From: Oligoflexia bacterium
GTDB lineage: Bacteria > Bdellovibrionota > UBA1018
DNA length: 64,000 nt
Assembly: GCA_963758495.1 (NCBI GenBank)
Contig: CAVWVI010000004.1
Span: 128,001 to 192,000 of the forward strand
Direction: 5' to 3'
The stretch's first letter is position 1. Every line of letters begins with the position of its first letter. A model generated the notes under the pieces. The model searched no databases, had not been told where the DNA came from, and worked only from the letters and a program-made list of their open reading frames with translations. A program made the translations under genes and the position numbers. This document shows, piece after piece, positions 27,120 to 45,451 of this stretch.

Positions 27120-28526
27120 TTAGTCAGAAAGAACATTCGCAATTTCATTTGCGAAAAAGCTCCAATGATCCGTCTTCAAACTGGTTTTCATAAATCGAAA
27201 TTCTGAATTTACACTTGGCTCTTTTTGAGAATAATAGGCATCCCCAATAATCGACTGAGTCCAAAGTTCATCTTTTAATTTTAATAATTCTTGAAAATGC
27301 AGCAACTTTCCTTCATCAAGGTTTCCAAAATAAGGAAGAACTCTATCCTTAAAAAAAGATACAGATTGATCACAATATTTTTCAAAATTACAATAATACC
27401 TATCTATTGATTTAAGGTAATTTCCATTAATTTTATTAAAAAAATTACGTTCAATTTCTAAAAAATGATCTCTATAACTCTTTTCGGCATTTGATATTTC
27501 ATTTTTATAAAGCTGCCGAAGGTCAAAAAGGTGTTTCTTTATTTCACTTGCTATAGCCACTCTCTCGTTCAGTTGACTTTCTAAATCTAAAAAACTCGGA
27601 TCAATCATTTGCTTTTTACAAAGCTCTAAAATGCTACGCTCAGCATTCACATCGAGATGACTCACCGCCTTTTCCTGTGCCAGCCAATATTGCTGAGAAA
27701 GATCATACTGTTCGTTTAAATCCTTAACATAACTAGCCATATCCAAACTTGTCCAAACACTAGCTACAATTAGAGCGCCAACAGCACCTACAGCCCCTCC
27801 AACCGCTGCAGCGGAAGTCACCGAACTCAGCGCAGAACCTGCCGCCGCATTTCCAATCATTGCACCCCCTGCTGTCATGCAGGACCCAACAATATATTTC
27901 GGATCATTACTTCCACACCCAGATTGACATGAGACCTGTGAAATCGACTGACTTCCAGTATTAACTTCGGCATTCATATAAACAATAGGCTTACAGGATT
28001 CAACAGCATGCTCCATAACTGGAAAAAATAAAACTTTGGGCTCATATTGCTTTTTAATACTTTTCACTTTTTCTACGGAACAAAAGTGACTATGACCCTG
28101 TTTCAATTTTTCAAAATCAGAGTAAACTTTTTTCACGGTTTCGATTTCTCGCCCCAAGGCTGACTCAGCCAAAATCACCTGAGTCAGGGTTTCATTAAAA
28201 TCTTTTGAATAGGTAGCTAACTTAGACCGAGTAGAGTCCAAACCTGCTCGAAAGGAACTCAAAATACCTTCCGTCAGTTTCAGTCGGTTAGCAGAAAACT
28301 TTGACAACTCCACGTAGTCATGGAGCAACATCTGAAAATGATCTGAAATTGCCATATCATAAGACTTCTGGATTGTTTTTGGGAAGTCTTCGTTTAAACT
28401 TTGCAACTGTTTTCTTAACTCTTCTACTCCTCCTGCGAGGATCGGTGAGACTGGAAGGAAAAAAAAGATTATGAAAAGAAGTGACTTTAACCGGGTCACA
28501 CTTTCAAAAGCGATCACTTTCTTCAT
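27120..28526 (-). CDS. Secreted helical protein with central Gly/Ala hydrophobic hairpin (alpha-pore-forming-toxin-like topology)
   Basis: Signal peptide; AGGAMIGNAAAGSALSSVTSAAAVGGAVGAVGALIVASVW flanked by heptad-rich helices. Confidence 0.6.
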   Translation of the reverse strand: MKKVIAFESVTRLKSLLFIIFFFLPVSPILAGGVEELRKQLQSLNEDFPKTIQKSYDMAISDHFQMLLHDYVELSKFSANRLKLTEGILSSFRAGLDSTRSKLATYSKDFNETLTQVILAESALGREIETVKKVYSDFEKLKQGHSHFCSVEKVKSIKKQYEPKVLFFPVMEHAVESCKPIVYMNAEVNTGSQSISQVSCQSGCGSNDPKYIVGSCMTAGGAMIGNAAAGSALSSVTSAAAVGGAVGAVGALIVASVWTSLDMASYVKDLNEQYDLSQQYWLAQEKAVSHLDVNAERSILELCKKQMIDPSFLDLESQLNERVAIASEIKKHLFDLRQLYKNEISNAEKSYRDHFLEIERNFFNKINGNYLKSIDRYYCNFEKYCDQSVSFFKDRVLPYFGNLDEGKLLHFQELLKLKDELWTQSIIGDAYYSQKEPSVNSEFRFMKTSLKTDHWSFFANEIANVLSD

Positions 28527-29713
28527 AAATTTGCTTCATTTCTATTTTTAATTTTTTCTAAAATAGAGTCATGCAAAAGAATAGCTTCATAAATATTAAC
28601 TTCTTTAACATCTCGTTCTTTTCTCATTTTTCTCAGCGTTTTAATATCAGCGATAACGTCATAGGGTGGATTATAAATATTAAAAAGAGTGGTTGATATA
28701 GGTCCCCAAGCCCCAGCATCCAAAAAAAACTCTGCTTCATGAATATAATCAGCTATCAAAGCACAGCCAGCTAAAAGTGGAGACTGAGTATTTTCAAGAT
28801 GTTCCCAATCAGAACATCGGTCTTTATAAGTAAGAATATTTTGATACATTTCATACCGAGCCTTAAGGGGAATTCCAGGCTTTTTTTCTACTTCTTGATG
28901 TTGAGCACGAGCAAAAGTTAGATTTAATTGATGAATCACCTCACCTACTTCTTCTACAAAACGAAGACTTTCATTATTGAGTCGCTTCTTTTCATCATAT
29001 TCTCTTTCCCATTCTTTGAATTCCTTCTCAAGAATACGATCCATACTTTTAGTAATCAGTTGAAACTGATCCTCAATTTCTGCTTGAACCTTGGCATTAA
29101 GAGCTTTGATTTCATCTACCATCAAATTAAGCTGATTCAGCACAGTCTGATTTAATCCTTTGAGATTTCTATTCTTTACAAACAAATCCGACACTTCATG
29201 AACACCCCTCTCAAACTCAATTTTAATTTGTGCTTGAGAAAAGTATAGCTTTTCAATTTTAAATTTTGATTGAATCAAATCTTCAGAAGTAACCGCTTCT
29301 TCTATTTTCTGAGCATGTGCTAGCACTTGTTTCCGCACCCTAGGATGAGCTACCAACAAATCTTCAAACCGATTCGTGAGTGTAGCTACACGCTTCTCCA
29401 AGTCATTTTGAATGCTATTTTCTTCTTCACTATTGTCATGGCCTAAATCAGCCTTCTTTTCTATCGACTCCGACTTCAATCTAATAGGGTTGACGGTAGC
29501 ATTTTCTTTGCACTCATCATTTCTAGACGTCCCATGACTCTTTTGATTATCTCCTGCTCGAGAATCGCTAGATTCTACAATCTGATCTATTTTGGCCGGC
29601 TCATGCTCTTCATCAGATCCAGACATAGGAGAAGTTGATTTTCCACAAGAAATAGAAATTATCCCAAAACAAATTATTATTACAAGTCTTGTAATAATAT
29701 CATTAGACTTCAT
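28523..29713 (-). CDS. Lipoprotein whose C-terminal ~300 aa duplicates the end of the upstream gene
   Basis: Lipobox ISISC; ATGA overlaps with both neighbours. Confidence 0.75.
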   Translation of the reverse strand: MKSNDIITRLVIIICFGIISISCGKSTSPMSGSDEEHEPAKIDQIVESSDSRAGDNQKSHGTSRNDECKENATVNPIRLKSESIEKKADLGHDNSEEENSIQNDLEKRVATLTNRFEDLLVAHPRVRKQVLAHAQKIEEAVTSEDLIQSKFKIEKLYFSQAQIKIEFERGVHEVSDLFVKNRNLKGLNQTVLNQLNLMVDEIKALNAKVQAEIEDQFQLITKSMDRILEKEFKEWEREYDEKKRLNNESLRFVEEVGEVIHQLNLTFARAQHQEVEKKPGIPLKARYEMYQNILTYKDRCSDWEHLENTQSPLLAGCALIADYIHEAEFFLDAGAWGPISTTLFNIYNPPYDVIADIKTLRKMRKERDVKEVNIYEAILLHDSILEKIKNRNEANL

Positions 29714-32376
29714 AAACTAGCTTCTCTTTCTTTTTTAATTTTTTCTAAAATAGAGTCGTGTAGAAGAATCGCTTCATAAATACCGACTTCTTTAGTTTCT
29801 CGTTCTTTTCTCATTTTTCTCAGCACTTTAATGTCAGCAATCACATCGTTGGGCGGATTATAAATATTAAAAAGCGTAACTGACATAGGCCCCCAAGCCC
29901 CAGCATTCAAAAAAAATTCTGCTTCCTTAATGTAATCACCTATCAATGTACAGCCAGCTAAAAGTGGGGACTGAATATTTTCAAGATGTTTCAAATCAGA
30001 ACATTGGTCTTTGTAAGTAAGAATATTTTGATAAATCTCATAACGAGATTTAAGAGGATCTCCTGGTTTATTGCTCATTTCTTGACGCTGAATGGTATCA
30101 AAATTTAATTGATAAATCACTTCACCTACTTCATCGACAAAACGAAGACTCTCAATATTCTGTCGCTTCTTTTCATCGTATTTTTTTTCCCATTCCTTGA
30201 ATTGATTCGAAAGAATTCGATCCAAACTTTTGGAGATCAAGGAAAACTGACCTTCGATTTCCAATTGAACCTTAGAGTAATGACTTTTGATTTCCTCGAT
30301 TATCAGATTAAGCTTAGTGGGCACAGTCTGATTCAATCCCTTGAGGTTTCTATACTCTAAAAATAAATCCGACACTTCATGGGCACCCCTCTCAAACTCC
30401 ATTTTGATTTGTGCTTGAGAAAAGTAGAGTTTTTCAAATTTAAATTTTGATTGAATCAAATCTTTAATACTCACAGCTTCTTCTATTTTTTGAACATGTA
30501 CTGCGACTTGTTTCTGCGCCACAGGATGAGCGGTCAACAAATCAGCGAATCGCTCCATAAGTGCGTCTAACCGCTCTTGTAAATCCTTTTGAGTACTCTC
30601 TTCTTCTTCGGTAGCTTGAAACCCTGTATCTAACTTCACTTGAATGGGTTCTGACTTTAATCCAGGAGGAGCGACAGATTTAATTTCCGAGGTTAGAATC
30701 AGTTTAGAATCTATTTGCTGCGGATCACTTAAATCCACGTCACCATTACAAAGAGGAATTTCGAAATAGCTGCTCACATGAGCACTTAATTGAGGAAAGA
30801 GTTCTAACTTTGCGCGATTATATTCGACACAACGAAGAATGGCCTGTTCAAGTTCGTGACGAATGATTTTATTTATCTGATCATGTACCTGACTTTGAAG
30901 CTGCATCCACAGAGGCTTAGCCTCCGAAACATTCTTTATTTTTAAAACTTTTTCAATCAGCTCTGTAAGTATTGACAAATACTGTCTAGTTTTTGCCAAA
31001 ATGGTAACATCCAAGTCAGAATTCATCACATGCTGGGTTAATTTTCGTGTATTCAGCTCCCAGGAATCACGAATCAATTGCCGTAAACCCTCCTGAAGCT
31101 GAAATACTCTTTCTGATTGATGCCCAGAAGTTCCGATATTGAGTTGCTCAGTAGAATGAATGCGAGAAATTGACTCTTCGAAAAAAAACTTAAGGCTCCG
31201 TACAAAGCTAAAAGCAAACCACGACTCATGAACTTTTCTTCGCTCATTTTCCAGTAACTGAAATGAAATAAGAATTCCATTCTCAATCTGCTCCAGTTGA
31301 TTCTTAGAATGCTTTGTGTAAACAGAAAAGAATGGATCATCGTGCGATCGATTTAAACCTACCTCACCTAAGTCACCTTTACCTAGATTGCCTGGATCTG
31401 ATAAATCCTGAACACCCATTGGGCCATTAGAAATCTCCATATGATTCCATAAGAGACTAGCGGCATCACCCTTACCTCCTACACCTCCCCGACCCGGATC
31501 TCCTTTTAATCCAGGCTTACCCCCCTGACCTCCTAAACCTGGAAAAGAGTGCAAATGCCTTTTATCTAATTCTTTTAGCGACTGATTAGTCAAAAACACA
31601 AAAGGAATTGCACAGCCACCTTTTCCTCCTGTGCCGCCCTTTCCACCTCGACCCCCACGCCCTCCAGCACCTCCTCTACCCGCTGTACTAGTTGACCCAT
31701 TATAGGTCGCATGAGCTGGGCCACCCGGACCGCCATCACCGCCAGCACCCCCTTTTCCTCCAGTTCCTCCTACGCCACCGGATTGACCTTCGCAGATGAT
31801 CTTAGGTGTTCCCAAAACTTGTGCTGCAAAAAAGTAGATTGGCTTCGGATTTTTTTCACCATTCATCCCACAGTAGCCAGTTTCCCCATCATTTCCCGCA
31901 CCTCCCGCTACTCCATCATTACCAATCGAAGTGAGTTCATGATTCTTTATACCTAAAGGATGGACTCTTAAAGGAGTTGGAAGATTACTTTCCGTAGTCA
32001 ATGCAGCGACAGAAGGACTTTGTTCTTGCGCAGGCGCACAAAAACTATAGCCTTGGATAGAGCCCTTCTCTGTAAAAATGACCTGCCGAGCTTCAACAAT
32101 CAATTGATATCCATGAGTGAATATGGGTCCATCAATCACGATTTGATCTGCTCGAATCACTTCGTCATTTTTAAGTACAAAGGAATGGGGTCCTAGTGTG
32201 ATTTTATTTCCATAAATCAATAAAGACTGATTCAATAAATCCGACTCAACTTTAAAAGGATCGAAATCGGTATCTACTTCATCGCCTGAATGAGCACGAC
32301 CCCCCAGAAATAATAGGCTCGTCATGATCAACAGCGGCGCTATCCGAGAAAATTTTTTAAATAAATATTTTTTCAT
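29710..32376 (-). CDS. Large secreted protein with Gly-rich (collagen/PGRS-like) segments and coiled-coil C-terminus
   Basis: Probable start MKKYLFKK with signal peptide; GGxGGxG repeats; C-terminal domain shared with next gene. Confidence 0.75.
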   Translation of the reverse strand: MKKYLFKKFSRIAPLLIMTSLLFLGGRAHSGDEVDTDFDPFKVESDLLNQSLLIYGNKITLGPHSFVLKNDEVIRADQIVIDGPIFTHGYQLIVEARQVIFTEKGSIQGYSFCAPAQEQSPSVAALTTESNLPTPLRVHPLGIKNHELTSIGNDGVAGGAGNDGETGYCGMNGEKNPKPIYFFAAQVLGTPKIICEGQSGGVGGTGGKGGAGGDGGPGGPAHATYNGSTSTAGRGGAGGRGGRGGKGGTGGKGGCAIPFVFLTNQSLKELDKRHLHSFPGLGGQGGKPGLKGDPGRGGVGGKGDAASLLWNHMEISNGPMGVQDLSDPGNLGKGDLGEVGLNRSHDDPFFSVYTKHSKNQLEQIENGILISFQLLENERRKVHESWFAFSFVRSLKFFFEESISRIHSTEQLNIGTSGHQSERVFQLQEGLRQLIRDSWELNTRKLTQHVMNSDLDVTILAKTRQYLSILTELIEKVLKIKNVSEAKPLWMQLQSQVHDQINKIIRHELEQAILRCVEYNRAKLELFPQLSAHVSSYFEIPLCNGDVDLSDPQQIDSKLILTSEIKSVAPPGLKSEPIQVKLDTGFQATEEEESTQKDLQERLDALMERFADLLTAHPVAQKQVAVHVQKIEEAVSIKDLIQSKFKFEKLYFSQAQIKMEFERGAHEVSDLFLEYRNLKGLNQTVPTKLNLIIEEIKSHYSKVQLEIEGQFSLISKSLDRILSNQFKEWEKKYDEKKRQNIESLRFVDEVGEVIYQLNFDTIQRQEMSNKPGDPLKSRYEIYQNILTYKDQCSDLKHLENIQSPLLAGCTLIGDYIKEAEFFLNAGAWGPMSVTLFNIYNPPNDVIADIKVLRKMRKERETKEVGIYEAILLHDSILEKIKKEREASL

Positions 32377-39469: not shown

Positions 39470-40324
39470 TCACCTTAAACAAAATTGAGGTGACATTTGA
39501 AGGAGTTCGAAATCCAAGTCAGATATAGGGGCTTTAGAATAGGCTAAAGCCCTGAATGGTGCAGCATTGGTTGAGTTACGTACCCGTTCAAGCCAACGAT
39601 GATCAAGCGGATACTCGATGAGATCCATTTGATTTGAGGCAATCGTCGTTTCGGCTTTTTCACCGATTTCACAACCCCTACCCACAAAAAATCCTGCAAG
39701 TAAGAGGGTAGTACGCACCGCTGTAGAGCGCGTATAATTCGTAAGCAAACATGGGATATCAGACTTCAAACACTGCCGTACTCTGGAAAAATGCTCTAGC
39801 GTCCACATCTCCTGATTTCCTATAGGCGAATAGGGATCGTAAAAAATCGCATGGGGTGCCGAAGCATGCCCATTCTTGATTTGATCTCGAAAATCACCCA
39901 GATGAAGTTGCCATTGAATATGCGGTAAAATACTTACTTGATGACTTGTGAGTAATTCTCTTAAAACCTGCTCATAGGGAACTAAATAACCCAGCTCATG
40001 AGCATGTGAGAGTGCAAACTCAATCGGAGCAGTCGTTTGATCGAAACTATGAATCTCTACGTTCGTTTGACCCTGGCGAAGTGCTTCGATCGCTGCAAGT
40101 ACATTTGCAGCGGCTCCAAAACCCACATCCCAAATCACGAACTTCGGAGTCGTTTGACTACAGCGCTCAACTAAGCGTTGCTGTTCAACGTGAAGAACAT
40201 TGGCTTCAACCCACGGCCCTGTGACCGGATGAAAAGTCTCATGATGCGCCAAAGAGCGTAGACTCTTAATTCCAGTTTTGAGTGTAACAATTTCAAACTC
40301 GTTCAAAAATGATTGGCGTTCCAT
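39470..40324 (-). CDS. MnmC/MnmD-type tRNA (mnm5s2U34) methyltransferase domain protein
   Basis: ETFHP...EA, WDVGFGAAAN, FYDPYSP..NQEMWT, YTRSTAVR. Confidence 0.75.
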   Translation of the reverse strand: MERQSFLNEFEIVTLKTGIKSLRSLAHHETFHPVTGPWVEANVLHVEQQRLVERCSQTTPKFVIWDVGFGAAANVLAAIEALRQGQTNVEIHSFDQTTAPIEFALSHAHELGYLVPYEQVLRELLTSHQVSILPHIQWQLHLGDFRDQIKNGHASAPHAIFYDPYSPIGNQEMWTLEHFSRVRQCLKSDIPCLLTNYTRSTAVRTTLLLAGFFVGRGCEIGEKAETTIASNQMDLIEYPLDHRWLERVRNSTNAAPFRALAYSKAPISDLDFELLQMSPQFCLR

Positions 40325-40402
40325 CTATCCATGAGTCTTTACCTGAGTGATCTACACGGGTCAATTACATTTCAGAGTTCAGAATTCGGGAGGCTGGATT
40401 CG

Positions 40403-40536
40403 GGGATCAGGTTCCTGGGATCAGGTTCCTGGAATCAGGTTCCTGGAATCAGGTACCCGGAATCAGGTACCCGGAATCAGGTACCCGGAATCAGGTTCCT
40501 GGAATCAGGTTCCTGGAATCAGGTTCCTGGAATCAG
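40403..40536 (+). repeat. 14-bp tandem repeat GGAATCAGGTTCCT, 9 full units plus a partial unit
   Basis: Counted directly; variants GGGATCAGGTTCCT (x2) and GGAATCAGGTACCC (x3). Confidence 0.95.
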
Positions 40537-40704
40537 CATTCTGAATCCTGCATCCCGGAGTCCCGGAATGACCGACTCCAGAAGATCTGCCTTACCCCTA
40601 TTTCCTGGAATTAGAGGTAAGGCTCCATCGCTCCTTTCTTTTTTCGAGAAACAGCCCCGTTGTCACTTGAGGGCTGTTCCTCAAAAATTCGAAAGGAGCT
40701 TATC
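40534..40704 (+). ncRNA. Candidate structured leader RNA of the four-helix-bundle gene
   Basis: Stems GCCTTACC/GGTAAGGC, AACAGCCC/GGGCTGTT and GCTCCTTTC/GAAAGGAGC (covers the RBS); only 3 differences from the second copy. Confidence 0.5.
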
Positions 40705-41010
40705 ATGGTCCATAATCAATTCAGGAGTTATCAGGTTGCCGTACAAGTCTTCAAAGAGTGTCGGTCACTCCAACTTCCATCGTATCTCAAGGATCAGTGT
40801 CTTCGTGCCGCATCCAGCGTTGTTCTCAACCTTGCAGAGGGTTCAGGCAAGGATTCCCCAGCTGATCGTAGACGCTTCTACCAGATCGCAATGGGTAGCA
40901 CTCGCGAAGTGCAAGCTATTTTAGATCTTGCTGATCGAGTTCCTGCTTCTCTCCGTGATCAAGCTGATCACCTCGGTGCTTGTGTCTACAAGCTCTGCCG
41001 GGCGCTCTAG
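40705..41010 (+). CDS. Four-helix-bundle protein (23S rRNA IVS protein / bAvd-like)
   Basis: F.SYQ.A...LKDQCLRAASSVVLNLAEGSGK....RRRFYQIAMGSTREV; ATG after AAGGAG. Confidence 0.9.
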   Translation: MVHNQFRSYQVAVQVFKECRSLQLPSYLKDQCLRAASSVVLNLAEGSGKDSPADRRRFYQIAMGSTREVQAILDLADRVPASLRDQADHLGACVYKLCRAL

Positions 41011-41025
41011 TTATTTTTCTATTCA

Positions 41026-41057
41026 TTCTCTCTTGAGAGTAAGTTCTCAAGAGAGAA
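41026..41057. terminator. 13-bp hairpin at the 3' end of the left module
   Basis: TTCTCTCTTGAGA-GTAAGT-TCTCAAGAGAGAA. Confidence 0.6.
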
Positions 41058-41128
41058 TTAGATTTTCTTTTATTGGAGTTGATCACGTCATTAATTAATA
41101 GGTTTCGTAAGGATAAATTATCCTCCAT

Positions 41129-41593
41129 TTAAAAATAAAATTTAATCCCTAAATTAAAACCAACCCCTCGTGCTAAATAACTCCAAAATGGTAGTGAGTA
41201 ACCCACCTCTGAAGACATTACAAAATGTCGAGAATCGTTTATCGCATATTCAGTTCCAATGGCATAATTTAAGCCAAGAATATTTGAACTCTCAAATACA
41301 ATAAAGGCACTAGACTTAAAATATGCAGCAAAGGAGGAAAAATCTATAAGTCTAGACATGGTTCCTAAAGTAAACATTGAATAAGCGGTACTTCCTTCAG
41401 GTGAAGGAAGTAATTCAGAAAATTGCGCAAACATAGAGATATGATTACGATCTGACAAAGGAGAATTTATTCCTACGGTGTAGCCGACTTCTGAATTAAT
41501 GGCACTAGGTCCAGCCATTAAAGAGAAAGTAGATGGAACTGAAGCCATACAGGTCGTAGAAAATATTAAACACAAAAATAAAATTTTTTTCAT
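41129..41593 (-). CDS. Small outer-membrane beta-barrel-like protein
   Basis: Signal peptide, alternating beta pattern, C-terminal GFNLGIKFYF beta-signal. Confidence 0.65.
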   Translation of the reverse strand: MKKILFLCLIFSTTCMASVPSTFSLMAGPSAINSEVGYTVGINSPLSDRNHISMFAQFSELLPSPEGSTAYSMFTLGTMSRLIDFSSFAAYFKSSAFIVFESSNILGLNYAIGTEYAINDSRHFVMSSEVGYSLPFWSYLARGVGFNLGIKFYF

Positions 41594-41644
41594 AAAATTT
41601 CTATTAAACTTGAGGTTAGTTTTTATCTAGCCTCAAACATAAAA

Positions 41645-41926
41645 CTATCCAATTGATTTTAGAATCTCTTCTAATATCTGTACTAACGTGTCCTTTGTTG
41701 TAGTAACGCACTCACTTTCTCCACCCACTGACCACACTGAAACTTTGATCATTCCATCTTTTATGGGGGGATCAATACCAATTCGCTTTTCTCCTACACT
41801 GAAAATCCGCAATTGATAATCTTTAAATTCCTTTAAGAATTGTAAATTACTATGCCTTCTTGCGAACGTTTCAATCTCATGATCAATATCTTCAAATAAG
41901 TTTTTTTCTTCTGGCCAATCACTCAT
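41645..41926 (-). CDS. Probable immunity protein
   Basis: MSDWPEEK start after GGAGGTG, overlaps toxin stop; small, no signal peptide. Confidence 0.65.
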   Translation of the reverse strand: MSDWPEEKNLFEDIDHEIETFARRHSNLQFLKEFKDYQLRIFSVGEKRIGIDPPIKDGMIKVSVWSVGGESECVTTTKDTLVQILEEILKSIG

Positions 41927-43253
41927 AAAACACCTCCGGTAATTGTCTCGTATTTTTAAAATTTGAAGCATCAATGGACTTCTCTAGTCTGTATTGAATT
42001 GCACCGCTAGGAGCTTCAAGTGGCATTTCAGTAAAATCATTATGAAATTGCACACTCCCTCTACTCATGGGGGTTCCCGATGGAACATGCACATCTGAAA
42101 TAAGAGTTGGAGTTTTTGGTAGTGCATATTTAATTCGGATTCGTTCTGGAGTTAGTCCTTGAATCGAACTCTTCTTCATAACCCAAGCTTTAACCTTATT
42201 TTCTTCACAATGAACTCTTACCCATTTCGTCTTTTTCACGGTATCGAAGAAAACAACATAGGATCCATGTTCATAAGGCGGCAGATAAGTACCAGGTCCT
42301 TGTGTGAATGCAGCATTAACCTGCGTGGCCTCTCGAATGGAGGTTATGCGATGGCTTTTCTTCCAATCATTTAACAAATGTCCAGCGTGACCAATTAACC
42401 GCTCACCCTCACGTATCGCAATTTCAGCAGCATGCTTATCGGCTATCATGTGCGATGCACGTTGGAAAACCTTAGCCATACCACGTGTTGCCTGGACCAT
42501 GGATCGACCACCACCCGCAGTAACCGCTCCAACGAAGGCAAGGCTTCTTTCAACTAAGGAAAGCTGTAATCCAGTAACTAAGTTCTTCCCTGAGAATAAT
42601 TCATAAGTACTTCGGGCAAATCCAGATACGGGATCAAGACCAACCGCGATATCAAGAAACCCCTTAGCTAGTTCTTTATAAAAATTTGCATCCTCTCCGG
42701 CTCCACGTGAAGAAGACAGATCCGCCTCTTCTACTGAGATTAAACCAAACTCACGTGCCTGTTTTCGGTTTTCATAGTAGGGGTTAATTTTATAGAGGTC
42801 TGTATATATACGTTTTAATTCTTCCTTAATAACACCTTCATTTGCTGTAAACTTGTACGGAAGCTCTAGAGGGTCCGAAATAGAATTAACGTCGATATGC
42901 GGATTGGGCGCTTTTTCTAGCAAATCTTGAGTGAGTCGATTGAGCATATCGTCCACTGATTCTTCAACGGAAAAAGAGTGAATACTTTTCGATAGTTGAA
43001 TGGAAGCTTCAACTACCGCTCTCTTCTGTTCAAGTGCAAGTGCCTCACGTTTTGATGCCTCTGCCTGGTTGCGAATTCCTGAATAATCTATAGGTGCAGC
43101 AGGATGAAACACAGAATTCATATTAGAGGAGCCAATTGAATTACTTACCATTGGACCACCTCCTTCACCACCTATAGTCGTGTGAACATTAAAGCCATCA
43201 GTAGCGTAAACAGAACTAGAGAGTAACGACAATAAAACACTAATTAATCTCAT
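41919..43253 (-). CDS. Secreted polymorphic toxin with pre-toxin TG-like domain and C-terminal toxin domain
   Basis: Signal peptide; LDIAVGLDPVSGFARSTYELFSGKNLVTG..LS..ER (PT-TG-like); tip WVRVH...W.M...IQGLTPERI..KYALP..PT...V.VP.GT.M..G...GAIQY. Confidence 0.75.
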   Translation of the reverse strand: MRLISVLLSLLSSSVYATDGFNVHTTIGGEGGGPMVSNSIGSSNMNSVFHPAAPIDYSGIRNQAEASKREALALEQKRAVVEASIQLSKSIHSFSVEESVDDMLNRLTQDLLEKAPNPHIDVNSISDPLELPYKFTANEGVIKEELKRIYTDLYKINPYYENRKQAREFGLISVEEADLSSSRGAGEDANFYKELAKGFLDIAVGLDPVSGFARSTYELFSGKNLVTGLQLSLVERSLAFVGAVTAGGGRSMVQATRGMAKVFQRASHMIADKHAAEIAIREGERLIGHAGHLLNDWKKSHRITSIREATQVNAAFTQGPGTYLPPYEHGSYVVFFDTVKKTKWVRVHCEENKVKAWVMKKSSIQGLTPERIRIKYALPKTPTLISDVHVPSGTPMSRGSVQFHNDFTEMPLEAPSGAIQYRLEKSIDASNFKNTRQLPEVFYE

Positions 43254-43797
43254 GTTTGCGCTCCTCTGTTAATTTCTCTAGCTCAGCAGCAAGGTCTGTT
43301 TTCATTCTCTGAACTGTGTGTCTCAGGTCTGATTGAACTAAGGGATCTCTTAAGTTAAGACCCTGCTGCATATAGTTCTGCATTAGGTTACGCACATCAG
43401 CTGTATGTCTATCTTTAGCTTCATTTTCGAGGTGATCAAAACGAAAATTGACCTGCTCAACTCTCGTACGCTCAGCCTCAGCGGAGGCTAAATTTGCTTG
43501 TTGTCTTTGAAGTTCAGCAGCCTGTTGCGAGGCATAGTTACGTTCGCAATCAGCCAGATTTTTCTCCTTTTCCTGCCATATCCTATGTTGATTGTGAGCA
43601 ACTAATCCTGGAAATACTCCAAAAACCCCACCCCATCCACCAGTTGCAATGCCCCCGTACGTAGCTATACCTGTGGAAATGCCACTAAAAGTTAAACATA
43701 AGTTTCTAAACTTATCCCTTTCTTCTCTCTCTTTCTCACAAATTGCAAAGGCACTTGCACTATATGACAGCAACAATAAAACTATAATTTTCTTCAT
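43240..43797 (-). CDS. Secreted coiled-coil protein with Gly-rich hydrophobic segment
   Basis: Signal peptide ending AFA; LTFSGISTGIATYGGIATGGWGGVFGVFPGLVA. Confidence 0.7.
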   Translation of the reverse strand: MKKIIVLLLLSYSASAFAICEKEREERDKFRNLCLTFSGISTGIATYGGIATGGWGGVFGVFPGLVAHNQHRIWQEKEKNLADCERNYASQQAAELQRQQANLASAEAERTRVEQVNFRFDHLENEAKDRHTADVRNLMQNYMQQGLNLRDPLVQSDLRHTVQRMKTDLAAELEKLTEERKHEIN

Positions 43798-43799
43798 GA

Positions 43800-44327
43800 T
43801 TATTTGCGCCCAGTTAAATTATTAATTTCTTCCTGGGTCCATCCCCGAACATCACGAAGGAAAGTGATAGCTTCCTGATTATTGGGATCAAGCATAATAA
43901 CCATCGTGGCCCAATACTCTTTAAGAATTGGGTCCTGCTCCTGGTTCATAGCATTAAGAATTTCGTCAAGTGTCTCAACTCGATTTCTTGCTTCTTCTTC
44001 ACGTCTTTTCTGCTCAAACTCTCTACGCCTTTGAGCATCCCGGGTGACTTTCTCTTCCCATTCCCGCCTAGCTTTATCATTGGCTTCTCTAGCCTGCTGA
44101 CGTTCCCATTCTGCTTTCTCAATAATACTTCGTTCTAGCTCAAGCCTTCTTTGCTCTAAAATATGCCTTGCTTTATGCTCTTCTACTTCTACTTTCCTTC
44201 TATTACTCTCTACATCCATACGAACTTGTCGTTCACGTTGCTCTCTCATAGGGTCATGAGACATTCCACTTCCATTATTACCAGCTAAGGCGCTAGATGT
44301 TAATAATGTTAATAAAATGATATACAT
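43800..44327 (-). CDS. Secreted charged coiled-coil protein
   Basis: AGGAG RBS, signal peptide ending ALA, E/R-rich helix. Confidence 0.7.
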   Translation of the reverse strand: MYIILLTLLTSSALAGNNGSGMSHDPMREQRERQVRMDVESNRRKVEVEEHKARHILEQRRLELERSIIEKAEWERQQAREANDKARREWEEKVTRDAQRRREFEQKRREEEARNRVETLDEILNAMNQEQDPILKEYWATMVIMLDPNNQEAITFLRDVRGWTQEEINNLTGRK

Positions 44328-44691
44328 TTGTACTCCTAATGAATCCCTAATTCCTTAACTTCTAAAAAAATATTTTTAATCTTTTATTATAGAGTTATAT
44401 AGAATTCAATAATATTTATAAATATTTATAATAACGACAATACAGCCGTACAATTGTTATGATTGACTCTCAATTTGAGAAGCAAGATTTTATAATCCCT
44501 CATATCACTTTCATTTTTTAGCAATAATCGTGAGAAATTTACGATTCGCCTTTCACGGTACTCTGAGATATGGTTTTAAATATTATTAGGAAAATTGGAT
44601 TTTCAAATATAGTTAAAAGCATTCTTCTTTTTAACTTTGCTCTCAAAGACAGAATTCCCTGAGTGTTAGGATTTGCTAATTAACGCAATAC

Positions 44692-44739: not shown

Positions 44740-45045
44740 CTAGAGCGCCCGACAGAGCTTATAGACACAAGCACCAAGGTGATCAGCTTGATCACGGAGA
44801 GAAGCAGGAACTCGATCAGCAAGATCTAAAATAGCTTGTACTTCGCGAGTGCTGCCCATTGCGATCTGGTAGAAGCGTCTACGATCAGCCGGAGAATCCT
44901 TACCAGAACCCTCCGCAAGGTTGAGAACCACGCTGGATGCGGCACGAAGACACTGATCCTTGAGATACGATGGAAGTTGGAGTGACCGACACTCTTTGAA
45001 TACTTGTACTCCAACCTGATAACTCCTGAATTGATTATGGACCAT
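44740..45045 (-). CDS. Four-helix-bundle protein (23S rRNA IVS protein / bAvd-like), second copy
   Basis: Identical to 40705..41010 protein except one A-to-G change. Confidence 0.9.
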   Translation of the reverse strand: MVHNQFRSYQVGVQVFKECRSLQLPSYLKDQCLRAASSVVLNLAEGSGKDSPADRRRFYQIAMGSTREVQAILDLADRVPASLRDQADHLGACVYKLCRAL

Positions 45046-45229
45046 GATAAGCTCCTTTCGAATTTTTGAGGAACAGCCCTCAAGTGACAACGGGGCTGTT
45101 TCTCGAAAAAAGAAAGGAGCGATGGGGCCATACCTCTAATTCCAGGAAATAGGGGTAAGGCAGATCTTCTGGGGTCGGTCATTCCGGGACTCCGGGATGC
45201 AGGATTCAGAATGCTGGGCTCAGGTTCCA

Positions 45230-45425
45230 AGGAACCTGATTCCAGGAACCTGATCCCAGGAACCTGATTCCAGGAACCTGATTCCAGGAACCTGATTCCA
45301 GGAACCTGATTCCAGGAACCTGATCCCAGGAACCTGATTCCAGGAACCTGATTCCAGGAACCTGATTCCAGGAACCTGATTCCAGGAACCTGATTCCAGG
45401 AACCTGATTCCAGGAACCTGATTCC
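45230..45425 (-). repeat. 14-bp tandem repeat GGAATCAGGTTCCT, 14 units
   Basis: AGGAACCTGATTCC on + strand, 196 bp = 14 units, two are GATCCC variants. Confidence 0.95.
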
Positions 45426-45451
45426 CGAATCCAGCCTCAAGCTCTATTTTG

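What the first reader, a model, noticed from the sequence alone, without database searches (positions are those of the whole stretch)
40534..40704. Non-coding leader more conserved than synonymous sites: candidate functional RNA partner of an Avd-like protein
Seen by manual alignment: the ~170-nt leader differs at only 3 positions between copies, while the 306-nt ORF differs at 14 nt, nearly all at third codon positions. The leader can fold into stems: GCCTTACC/GGTAAGGC, AACAGCCC/GGGCTGTT, and GCTCCTTTC pairing with GAAAGGAGC, which is the gene's own Shine-Dalgarno. Inference: a cis-regulatory or trans-acting structured RNA, possibly bound by the four-helix-bundle protein as bAvd binds DGR RNA.
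Basis: partly seen in the sequence, partly recalled or inferred. Interest (0 to 1): 0.8.

Follow-up and report, generated by a model that had tools for sequence, protein, structure and literature searches.

The report
Fold-back leader of four-helix-bundle cassette
The flagged leader is not a free-standing RNA gene but the left half of a DNA fold-back: a long hairpin over the ribosome-binding site plus a decayed mirror copy of the start of the small gene it precedes, part of a little repeated cassette of predatory bacteria.

Summary
The counts are right: 3 of 171 leader differences against 13 at 102 third codon positions (p=3e-4). The 170-nt RNA reading fails. In three metagenomic relatives (86-88% protein identity) only the last ~75 nt, a palindrome ending in the Shine-Dalgarno, is kept, with compensated pairs; the 5' part is near shuffle level. 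That 5' part is a decayed inverted copy of the ORF's first ~90 nt, concentric with the palindrome, best matching its own lineage's gene. In related Bdellovibrionota the palindrome is often the centre of divergent gene pairs, with mirrored arm changes and flipped loops, the marks of template switching. Stem mismatches are A·C on the mRNA strand (20 vs 2 G·U; terminator control 1 vs 10), so the template strand folds better. The protein is TIGR02436/PF05635, not bAvd; only 1 of 224 loci has an RT. Best reading: cis-acting fold-back of a small mobile-like cassette. Why the two copies' 5' parts are so alike stays open. The scan noted this cassette family before on other DNA (e1-1417437). I found no paper on it.

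The parts
40390..40533 (+). Left end shared by both copies (15 nt) and tandem array of 14-nt units made of two heptamers
   Evidence: period-14 self-identity 0.91, period-7 0.47; heptamer arrays at the same place in L145 and L147
40541..40628 (-). Decayed inverted copy of the first ~90 nt of the ORF (frame-broken remnant of a divergent partner gene); outer arm of the fold-back
   Evidence: p=0.023 here, 0.009 copy B, 0.001 in L145 and L147; arms 40565-40576 / 40760-40771, concentric with the palindrome
40589..40623 (.).
40630..40699 (.). SD palindrome: inner arms 40641-40657 / 40671-40687, 13-nt apex 40658-40670, outer helix pairing 40630-40638 with 40691-40699; the only part conserved in relatives
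40667..40684 (+). Competing short hairpin (6 bp here, 8 and 5 bp in L145 and L147) that would free the SD if the RNA began or were cut in the apex; a lead only
   Evidence: covariation not above shuffle
40693..40698 (+). Shine-Dalgarno AAGGAG, 6 nt before the ATG, in the 3' arm
   Evidence: sequence
40705..41010 (+). 101-aa four-helix-bundle protein, TIGR02436 / PF05635
   Evidence: model pLDDT 96, best fold match Xcc0516 2GSC TM 0.88
41025..41058 (+). Terminator-like hairpin, 14-15 bp; right end of the cassette
   Evidence: hairpins of other sequence follow the gene in L145-L147
44692..45435 (-). Second copy of the whole cassette, inverted, about 3.6 kb away (ORF 45045-44740, leader 45216-45046); ends approximate

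Best explanation
The leader is the left half of a fold-back centred on 40658-40670, in a ~670-bp cassette (heptamer array, inverted gene remnant, SD palindrome, PF05635 gene, terminator). Shown: the anatomy, its repetition at unrelated sites, and that arms are copied onto each other. Inferred: the cassette descends from the divergent two-gene form common in Bdellovibrionota, with one gene cut back to ~90 nt. When the DNA is single-stranded the gene's template strand folds on the apex, and template switching refreshes the arms, flips the apex and keeps the remnant tracking its own gene. That self-correction, plus constraint on the SD and apex, explains the low divergence of the last 75 nt. On the mRNA the same stem would bury the SD; the A·C mismatches weaken it, so a secondary cis effect on translation is likely. 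It is not a separate 170-nt RNA gene. How the cassette moves is not shown.
For: Remnant matches its own lineage's ORF best in all 4 sequences tested (A 34.5, B 36.5, L145 53.5, L147 65.5 with a perfect 25-nt patch); at lineage-private ORF sites it follows its own gene 21 times, the other lineages 4 times, neither 8. Concentric inverted repeats. 69 of 128 homologous gene starts sit in divergent pairs. Mirrored multi-base changes and indels in both arms between copies of one genome (L082/L084, L126/L127, L003/L024). Apex flipped in 2 of 15 copy pairs, a third ambiguous. Partner genes are most alike next to the palindrome (0.73/0.70/0.64 by thirds, 31 pairs; non-partners 0.56/0.60/0.55). A·C 20 vs G·U 2 on the mRNA strand in 37 single cassettes (30 clusters: 10 vs 2, 18 ties), control terminators 1 vs 10. 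Arm homogenisation and spacer inversion are the described marks of template switching, and such repeats are reported to be more conserved than their surroundings (PMC8604942, PMC8794818; passages).
Against: The remnant in this window is heavily decayed (65 matches in 103 columns; p only 0.023, and 0.076 with another window definition), so fold-back copying alone does not explain why its 91 nt differ at only 3 sites between copies. One search uses alignments fitted to the own gene, which favours 'own'. Only 6 of 23 other single cassettes show a remnant. A first, looser census gave 18 A·C vs 8 G·U, p=0.08; 9 of the 20 A·C come from this clade; the control has only 17 hairpins. A·C excess is also what selection for a weaker mRNA stem would give. 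One U·G pair occurs on the mRNA strand in the SD helix of L145/L147. No empty site or target duplication was found.
Confidence: 0.6

Rival explanations
1. The SD palindrome is first of all an mRNA operator: the stem hides the SD and is opened by a start or an RNase III cut near the apex, or by the pentamer binding the bulged apex (autoregulation). Can hold together with the best explanation.
For: SD lies in the 3' arm in most Bdellovibrionota cassettes; two pairs change on both sides in four sequences; position 40/70 of that alignment is unpaired in all four; a competing hairpin frees the SD in all three lineages; the protein is under strong purifying selection (1 amino-acid change vs 13 third-position changes), so the SD must open; bAvd binds a stem-loop through flipped-out bases (bioRxiv 2023.10.23.563531, section 8); RNase III cuts the IVS stem in Coxiella (PMC4990558, passages).
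Against: G·U pairs are nearly absent on the mRNA strand; apex flips and mirrored indels need DNA copying anyway; covariation of the competing hairpin is not above shuffle; apex motif orientation towards the gene is not significant (10 vs 4, p=0.18).
Confidence: 0.22
2. The near identity of the two leaders reflects history, not function: recent exchange between the two inverted copies 4 kb apart, or a recent duplication followed by replacement of the ORF interior by a diverged allele. This addresses the A/B likeness of the 5' part and does not exclude the fold-back.
For: The only two copies in 3.66 Mb lie within 4.4 kb (chance about 0.002); non-coding DNA on both sides of the ORF is near identical while all 14 ORF differences lie in 40739-40998; in other genomes the 95 nt upstream of the palindrome diverge freely between single-gene copies; none of the 3 differences is compensatory and one breaks a stem pair.
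Against: Third-position differences are not significantly clustered (p=0.36 and 0.065; 0.33); the arrays and terminator loops of the two copies differ.
Confidence: 0.35
3. The minus strand is transcribed as an antisense RNA from the palindrome leftwards; it folds stably and can pair with the SD and first 30 codons of the mRNA.
For: Antisense folds better in all parts of this leader (-42.0 vs -34.6, -21.0 vs -17.5, -20.7 vs -12.6) and in 17 of 26 single cassettes as RNA.
Against: The same bias holds with DNA parameters (21 of 26); the spacer folds no better than shuffles in L145 and L147; no promoter-like site on the minus strand.
Confidence: 0.08
4. One reading: a ~170-nt structured RNA that is the partner of an Avd-like protein as in a DGR.
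For: Low divergence between the two copies; z -5.9 fold; same fold family as bAvd (4DWL at rank 24, TM 0.64).
Against: 5' part unconserved in sequence and structure in close relatives; no match beyond 20-39 nt scraps in 115 other genomes of the order; no Rfam family; no bAvd profile match; RT beside 1 of 224 loci.
Confidence: 0.05

Closest known systems
ORF-bearing 23S rRNA intervening sequences (Coxiella, Leptospira; S23p / PF05635), PMC4990558 (passages read)
   Same: Same protein family; a long stem next to the ORF that involves the SD region; sporadic, selfish-looking spread.
   Different: Not in rRNA; the stem does not enclose the gene but sits in front of it and is centred on an apex; strong SD; heptamer array and terminator; often two divergent genes.
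Bordetella phage DGR Avd with Sp RNA (bioRxiv 10.1101/2023.10.23.563531; passages and section 8 read)
   Same: Related four-helix fold; Avd binds a stem-loop by flipped-out bases, a possible model for apex binding.
   Different: No RT, TR or VR beside the cassette; protein hits PF05635, not PF22296; closer to Xcc0516 (TM 0.88) than to bAvd (TM 0.64).
Template switching at inverted repeats (PMC8604942, PMC8794818; passages read)
   Same: Arm homogenisation, multi-base mirrored changes and spacer inversion are all seen here.
   Different: Here the copying reaches ~90 nt into a gene and goes with divergent gene pairs in a repeated cassette.
ssDNA hairpin sites read by recombinases (integron attC, IS200/IS605 ends, REP); recalled, no call
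   Same: Imperfect palindrome with a bulged apex that folds better on one strand.
   Different: No integrase or HUH transposase found beside it (IS200 TnpA hit in 0 of 224 loci; integrase not searched); arms end in an SD.

Membership tests
TIGR02436 / PF05635 four-helix-bundle proteins | Profile score above curated cut-off | tested here: met
   64 bits vs 24; 61 vs 33.8
TIGR02436 / PF05635 four-helix-bundle proteins | Four-helix fold like Xcc0516 | tested here: met
   pLDDT 96, four helices; 2GSC TM 0.88, E 1e-4
TIGR02436 / PF05635 four-helix-bundle proteins | Homopentamer | not testable with these tools
   the complex tool takes at most 4 copies; not run
DGR Avd + RNA | bAvd profile (PF22296) | tested here: not met
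   0 matches in the genome
DGR Avd + RNA | Adjacent reverse transcriptase | tested here: not met
   5 RT matches in the genome, nearest >140 kb away; 2 of 5 checked, both best matching group II intron RT; RT in 1 of 224 loci
DGR Avd + RNA | TR/VR pair differing at adenines | tested here: inconclusive
   no such repeat involving the cassette in the window's direct-repeat list; the whole genome was not scanned for TR/VR
23S rRNA IVS | Located in rRNA | tested here: not met
   flanks are protein genes; no rRNA match
23S rRNA IVS | Terminal inverted repeats enclosing the ORF | tested here: not met
   none among the longest inverted repeats shown
23S rRNA IVS | RNase III excision | not testable with these tools
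   needs RNA data
Conserved structured ncRNA of ~170 nt | Conservation or covariation over the whole length | tested here: not met
   5' part 0.51-0.55 identity vs 0.45-0.49 shuffled; only the last 75 nt kept
Conserved structured ncRNA of ~170 nt | G·U tolerated on the transcribed strand | tested here: not met
   2 G·U vs 20 A·C on the mRNA strand
Conserved structured ncRNA of ~170 nt | Known Rfam family | tested here: not met
   nothing at gathering score
Insertion sequence / MITE | Transposase, terminal repeats, target duplication | tested here: inconclusive
   no transposase in the cassette, no clear duplication by eye; multi-copy at unrelated flanks; no empty site available

The most novel reading that the evidence does not exclude
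The cassette is a transposase-free selfish element that exists transiently as a fold-back of the gene's template strand; its PF05635 pentamer binds the bulged apex, as bAvd binds a stem-loop, to protect or mobilise it, and apex flipping chooses which of two divergent paralogues is made. The leader would then be the first natural ligand for this long-unexplained protein family.
Probability: 0.2. Interest if true: 0.8.

Novelty: new variant of a known kind. Interest (0 to 1): 0.5.

Why it matters
PF05635 proteins are widespread and have solved structures but no known function. A 70-nt palindrome with a defined apex and a strand bias, tied to the gene across an order of bacteria, gives a concrete candidate ligand and a direct binding test (RNA or ssDNA, which strand). 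It also shows that compensated pairs and low divergence in a leader can come from DNA copying and need not mean an RNA gene.

Tried and rejected
Rfam: only below-threshold miRNA-type matches caused by the repeat array; none in L145-L147. DNA search of the leader in 116 genomes of the order: only 20-39 nt scraps in 3 other genomes. Sequencing runs: none was listed, no RNA holder listed, so no reads were laid; this is no evidence on expression. Overlapping 203/204-aa ORF through array and leader: no Pfam match of weight and 2 of 3 leader differences change its residues; rejected as the constraint. Two sigma-70-like sites are at chance level. Apex motif orientation not significant. Competing hairpin covariation not significant. 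Clustering of synonymous differences not significant. The protein tree is a quick tree with 46 of 105 forks open; it hints at two paralogue groups in pairs but is not relied on. No complex prediction was run. Paper searches that found nothing on this cassette: 0 papers; listings, nothing on it beyond the Coxiella IVS paper; one DGR paper. The library lacks most subscription journals; bioRxiv supplements could not be seen.

Full report
Observation. The two copies of the cassette (A: about 40390-41058, + strand; B: about 45435-44692, - strand) are the only ones in the 3.66-Mb genome. The leader differs at 3 of 171 sites (40577, 40620, 40624); the ORF at 14 of 306, 13 of them third positions, with one amino-acid change. 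The contrast with third positions is significant (p=3e-4); with the whole ORF it is not (p=0.13). The named stems exist and the leader folds far better than shuffles (z -5.9). All three differences fall in the 5' 91 nt, none is compensatory, and the 29 nt after the stop are also identical. No Rfam family reaches its threshold.

Protein. The 101-aa product passes TIGR02436 and PF05635 cut-offs, folds as four helices (pLDDT 96, 55-sequence alignment) and is closest to Xcc0516 (TM 0.88); bAvd ranks 24th (TM 0.64). The bAvd profile finds nothing in the genome. The genome has 5 RT matches, 2 of which I checked and which best match group II intron RTs, and one IS200 TnpA, all far from the cassette. 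Of 224 loci held, 1 had an RT match and 0 a TnpA match (single-query tblastn, flanks 1.5-2.5 kb, some loci duplicated or without a cassette). 'Avd-like' is thus true of the fold only.

Relatives. 22 of 61 related genomes carry the gene, with up to 15 matches; the closest named loci are mostly Bdellovibrionota. Most have a near-perfect inverted repeat of about 20-38 bp ending in the SD, with a short asymmetric apex (output partly cut), and 69 of 128 gene starts examined belong to divergent pairs sharing that palindrome. Three metagenomic loci are close (L145, L146 nearly identical to each other but with different upstream flanks, L147; 86-88% identity). They share the layout: heptamer array, ~95-nt spacer, SD palindrome, gene, terminator-like hairpin. 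The palindrome is 71-79% identical across lineages, third positions about 50%, and the spacer 51-55% against 45-49% for shuffles. In four sequences, 93% of cells of the 24-pair structure pair and two pairs change on both sides (few, related sequences). So the conserved unit is ~75 nt, not 170.

What the 5' part is. Its reverse complement aligns with the first ~90 nt of the ORF. Scores against the own gene: A 34.5 (p=0.023), B 36.5 (0.009), L145 53.5 (0.001), L147 65.5 (0.001, with a perfect 25-nt patch); against other lineages' genes they are lower. An independent repeat search finds arms 40565-40576 / 40760-40771, centred within 4 nt of the palindrome centre, and the same in L147. At lineage-private ORF sites the remnant follows its own gene 21 times, the other lineages 4 times, neither 8 times (alignments fitted to the own gene, so biased upward). 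6 of 23 other single cassettes show such a remnant, four of them related and one or two possibly truncated pairs.

DNA copying. Between near-identical copies within one genome, arms change in mirror image, including transversions, swaps and 3-nt deletions. The apex is reversed relative to the same gene in 2 of 15 copy pairs, with a third ambiguous. Partner genes are more alike near the palindrome (0.73, 0.70, 0.64 by thirds; first third above last in 23 of 31) than non-partners (0.56, 0.60, 0.55; 80 of 149). Arm homogenisation and spacer inversion are the published marks of template switching, which also makes inverted repeats look conserved (PMC8604942 and PMC8794818, passages).

Which strand folds. 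Every part of this leader folds better on the minus strand, as do the palindromes of L145 and L147. Isolated mismatches in 37 single cassettes (those passing an alignment-score filter, without N) are A·C 20, G·U 2, other 12 among 952 Watson-Crick pairs on the mRNA strand; by 30 clusters, 10 vs 2 with 18 ties (sign test about 0.04, by hand). 33 paired loci are almost perfect (14 mismatches, 1005 pairs). Terminator-like hairpins of this genome show the opposite, G·U 10 vs A·C 1 of 17. A looser first census was weaker (18 vs 8, p=0.08), and 9 of the 20 come from this clade. Three causes fit: selection for a template-strand fold, deamination on an exposed single strand, or selection for a weaker mRNA stem. 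None fits an mRNA-strand RNA selected for stability.

Mechanism. Shown: anatomy, repetition, copying between arms, strand bias, a protein under purifying selection. Inferred: a divergent two-gene cassette lost most of one gene; the fold-back forms on single-stranded DNA and is refreshed by template switching; the mRNA must escape a stem over its SD, perhaps by starting or being cut near the apex, where a short competing hairpin can form in all three lineages (covariation not significant). A symmetric pair would also let read-through from either side express one gene (speculation). Not shown: transcription, binding, mode of movement. Unexplained: why the decayed 91 nt differ at only 3 sites between A and B. 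Exchange between neighbouring inverted copies (or replacement of the ORF interior) and selection both remain possible; in other genomes this stretch diverges freely between single-gene copies. The confidences given to rivals are not exclusive.

Known systems and novelty. Closest are ORF-bearing 23S rRNA intervening sequences (PMC4990558, passages), which share the protein and a stem at the SD but enclose the gene and sit in rRNA. The DGR parallel is limited to the fold and to bAvd's binding of a stem-loop through flipped-out bases (bioRxiv 2023.10.23.563531, passages and section 8; PMC10053308, passages, notes the Avd-PF05635 likeness). Searches found no paper on this cassette. Added here: the single-gene form with an inverted remnant, the apex flips and the strand bias. 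Verdict: real feature, new variant of a known kind, interest 0.5.

Noticed in passing
window 41060-44690: The two inverted cassette copies bracket about 3.6 kb of lower GC (38% vs 49%) with five genes, one with a PT-TG domain (41919-43253), a likely bacterial competition toxin, followed by a small gene that may be its immunity protein; the segment could invert or move between the copies.
   Followed up: no
L146:70-1225: A group II intron-type RT gene and what looks by eye like the intron's 3' end lie directly upstream of the cassette.
   Followed up: partly
L152:1380-1870: A second architecture: the gene enclosed by ~60-bp terminal inverted repeats with no SD palindrome, IVS-like (by eye).
   Followed up: no
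window 40313-40924 and 44826-45440: A 203/204-aa frame stays open through array, leader and gene start in both copies; no family match, judged incidental.
   Followed up: yes
window 40603-40611: The apex of the local hairpin carries the 9-nt palindromic core of the array unit.
   Followed up: no
window 28521-30402: Two gene-sized direct repeats at 81-85% identity about 1.18 kb apart, a tandem duplication within or between large genes.
   Followed up: no
L018, L120, L134: Divergent pairs whose two genes are identical or nearly so for at least 70 bp out from the apex, signs of recent copying across the palindrome.
   Followed up: partly
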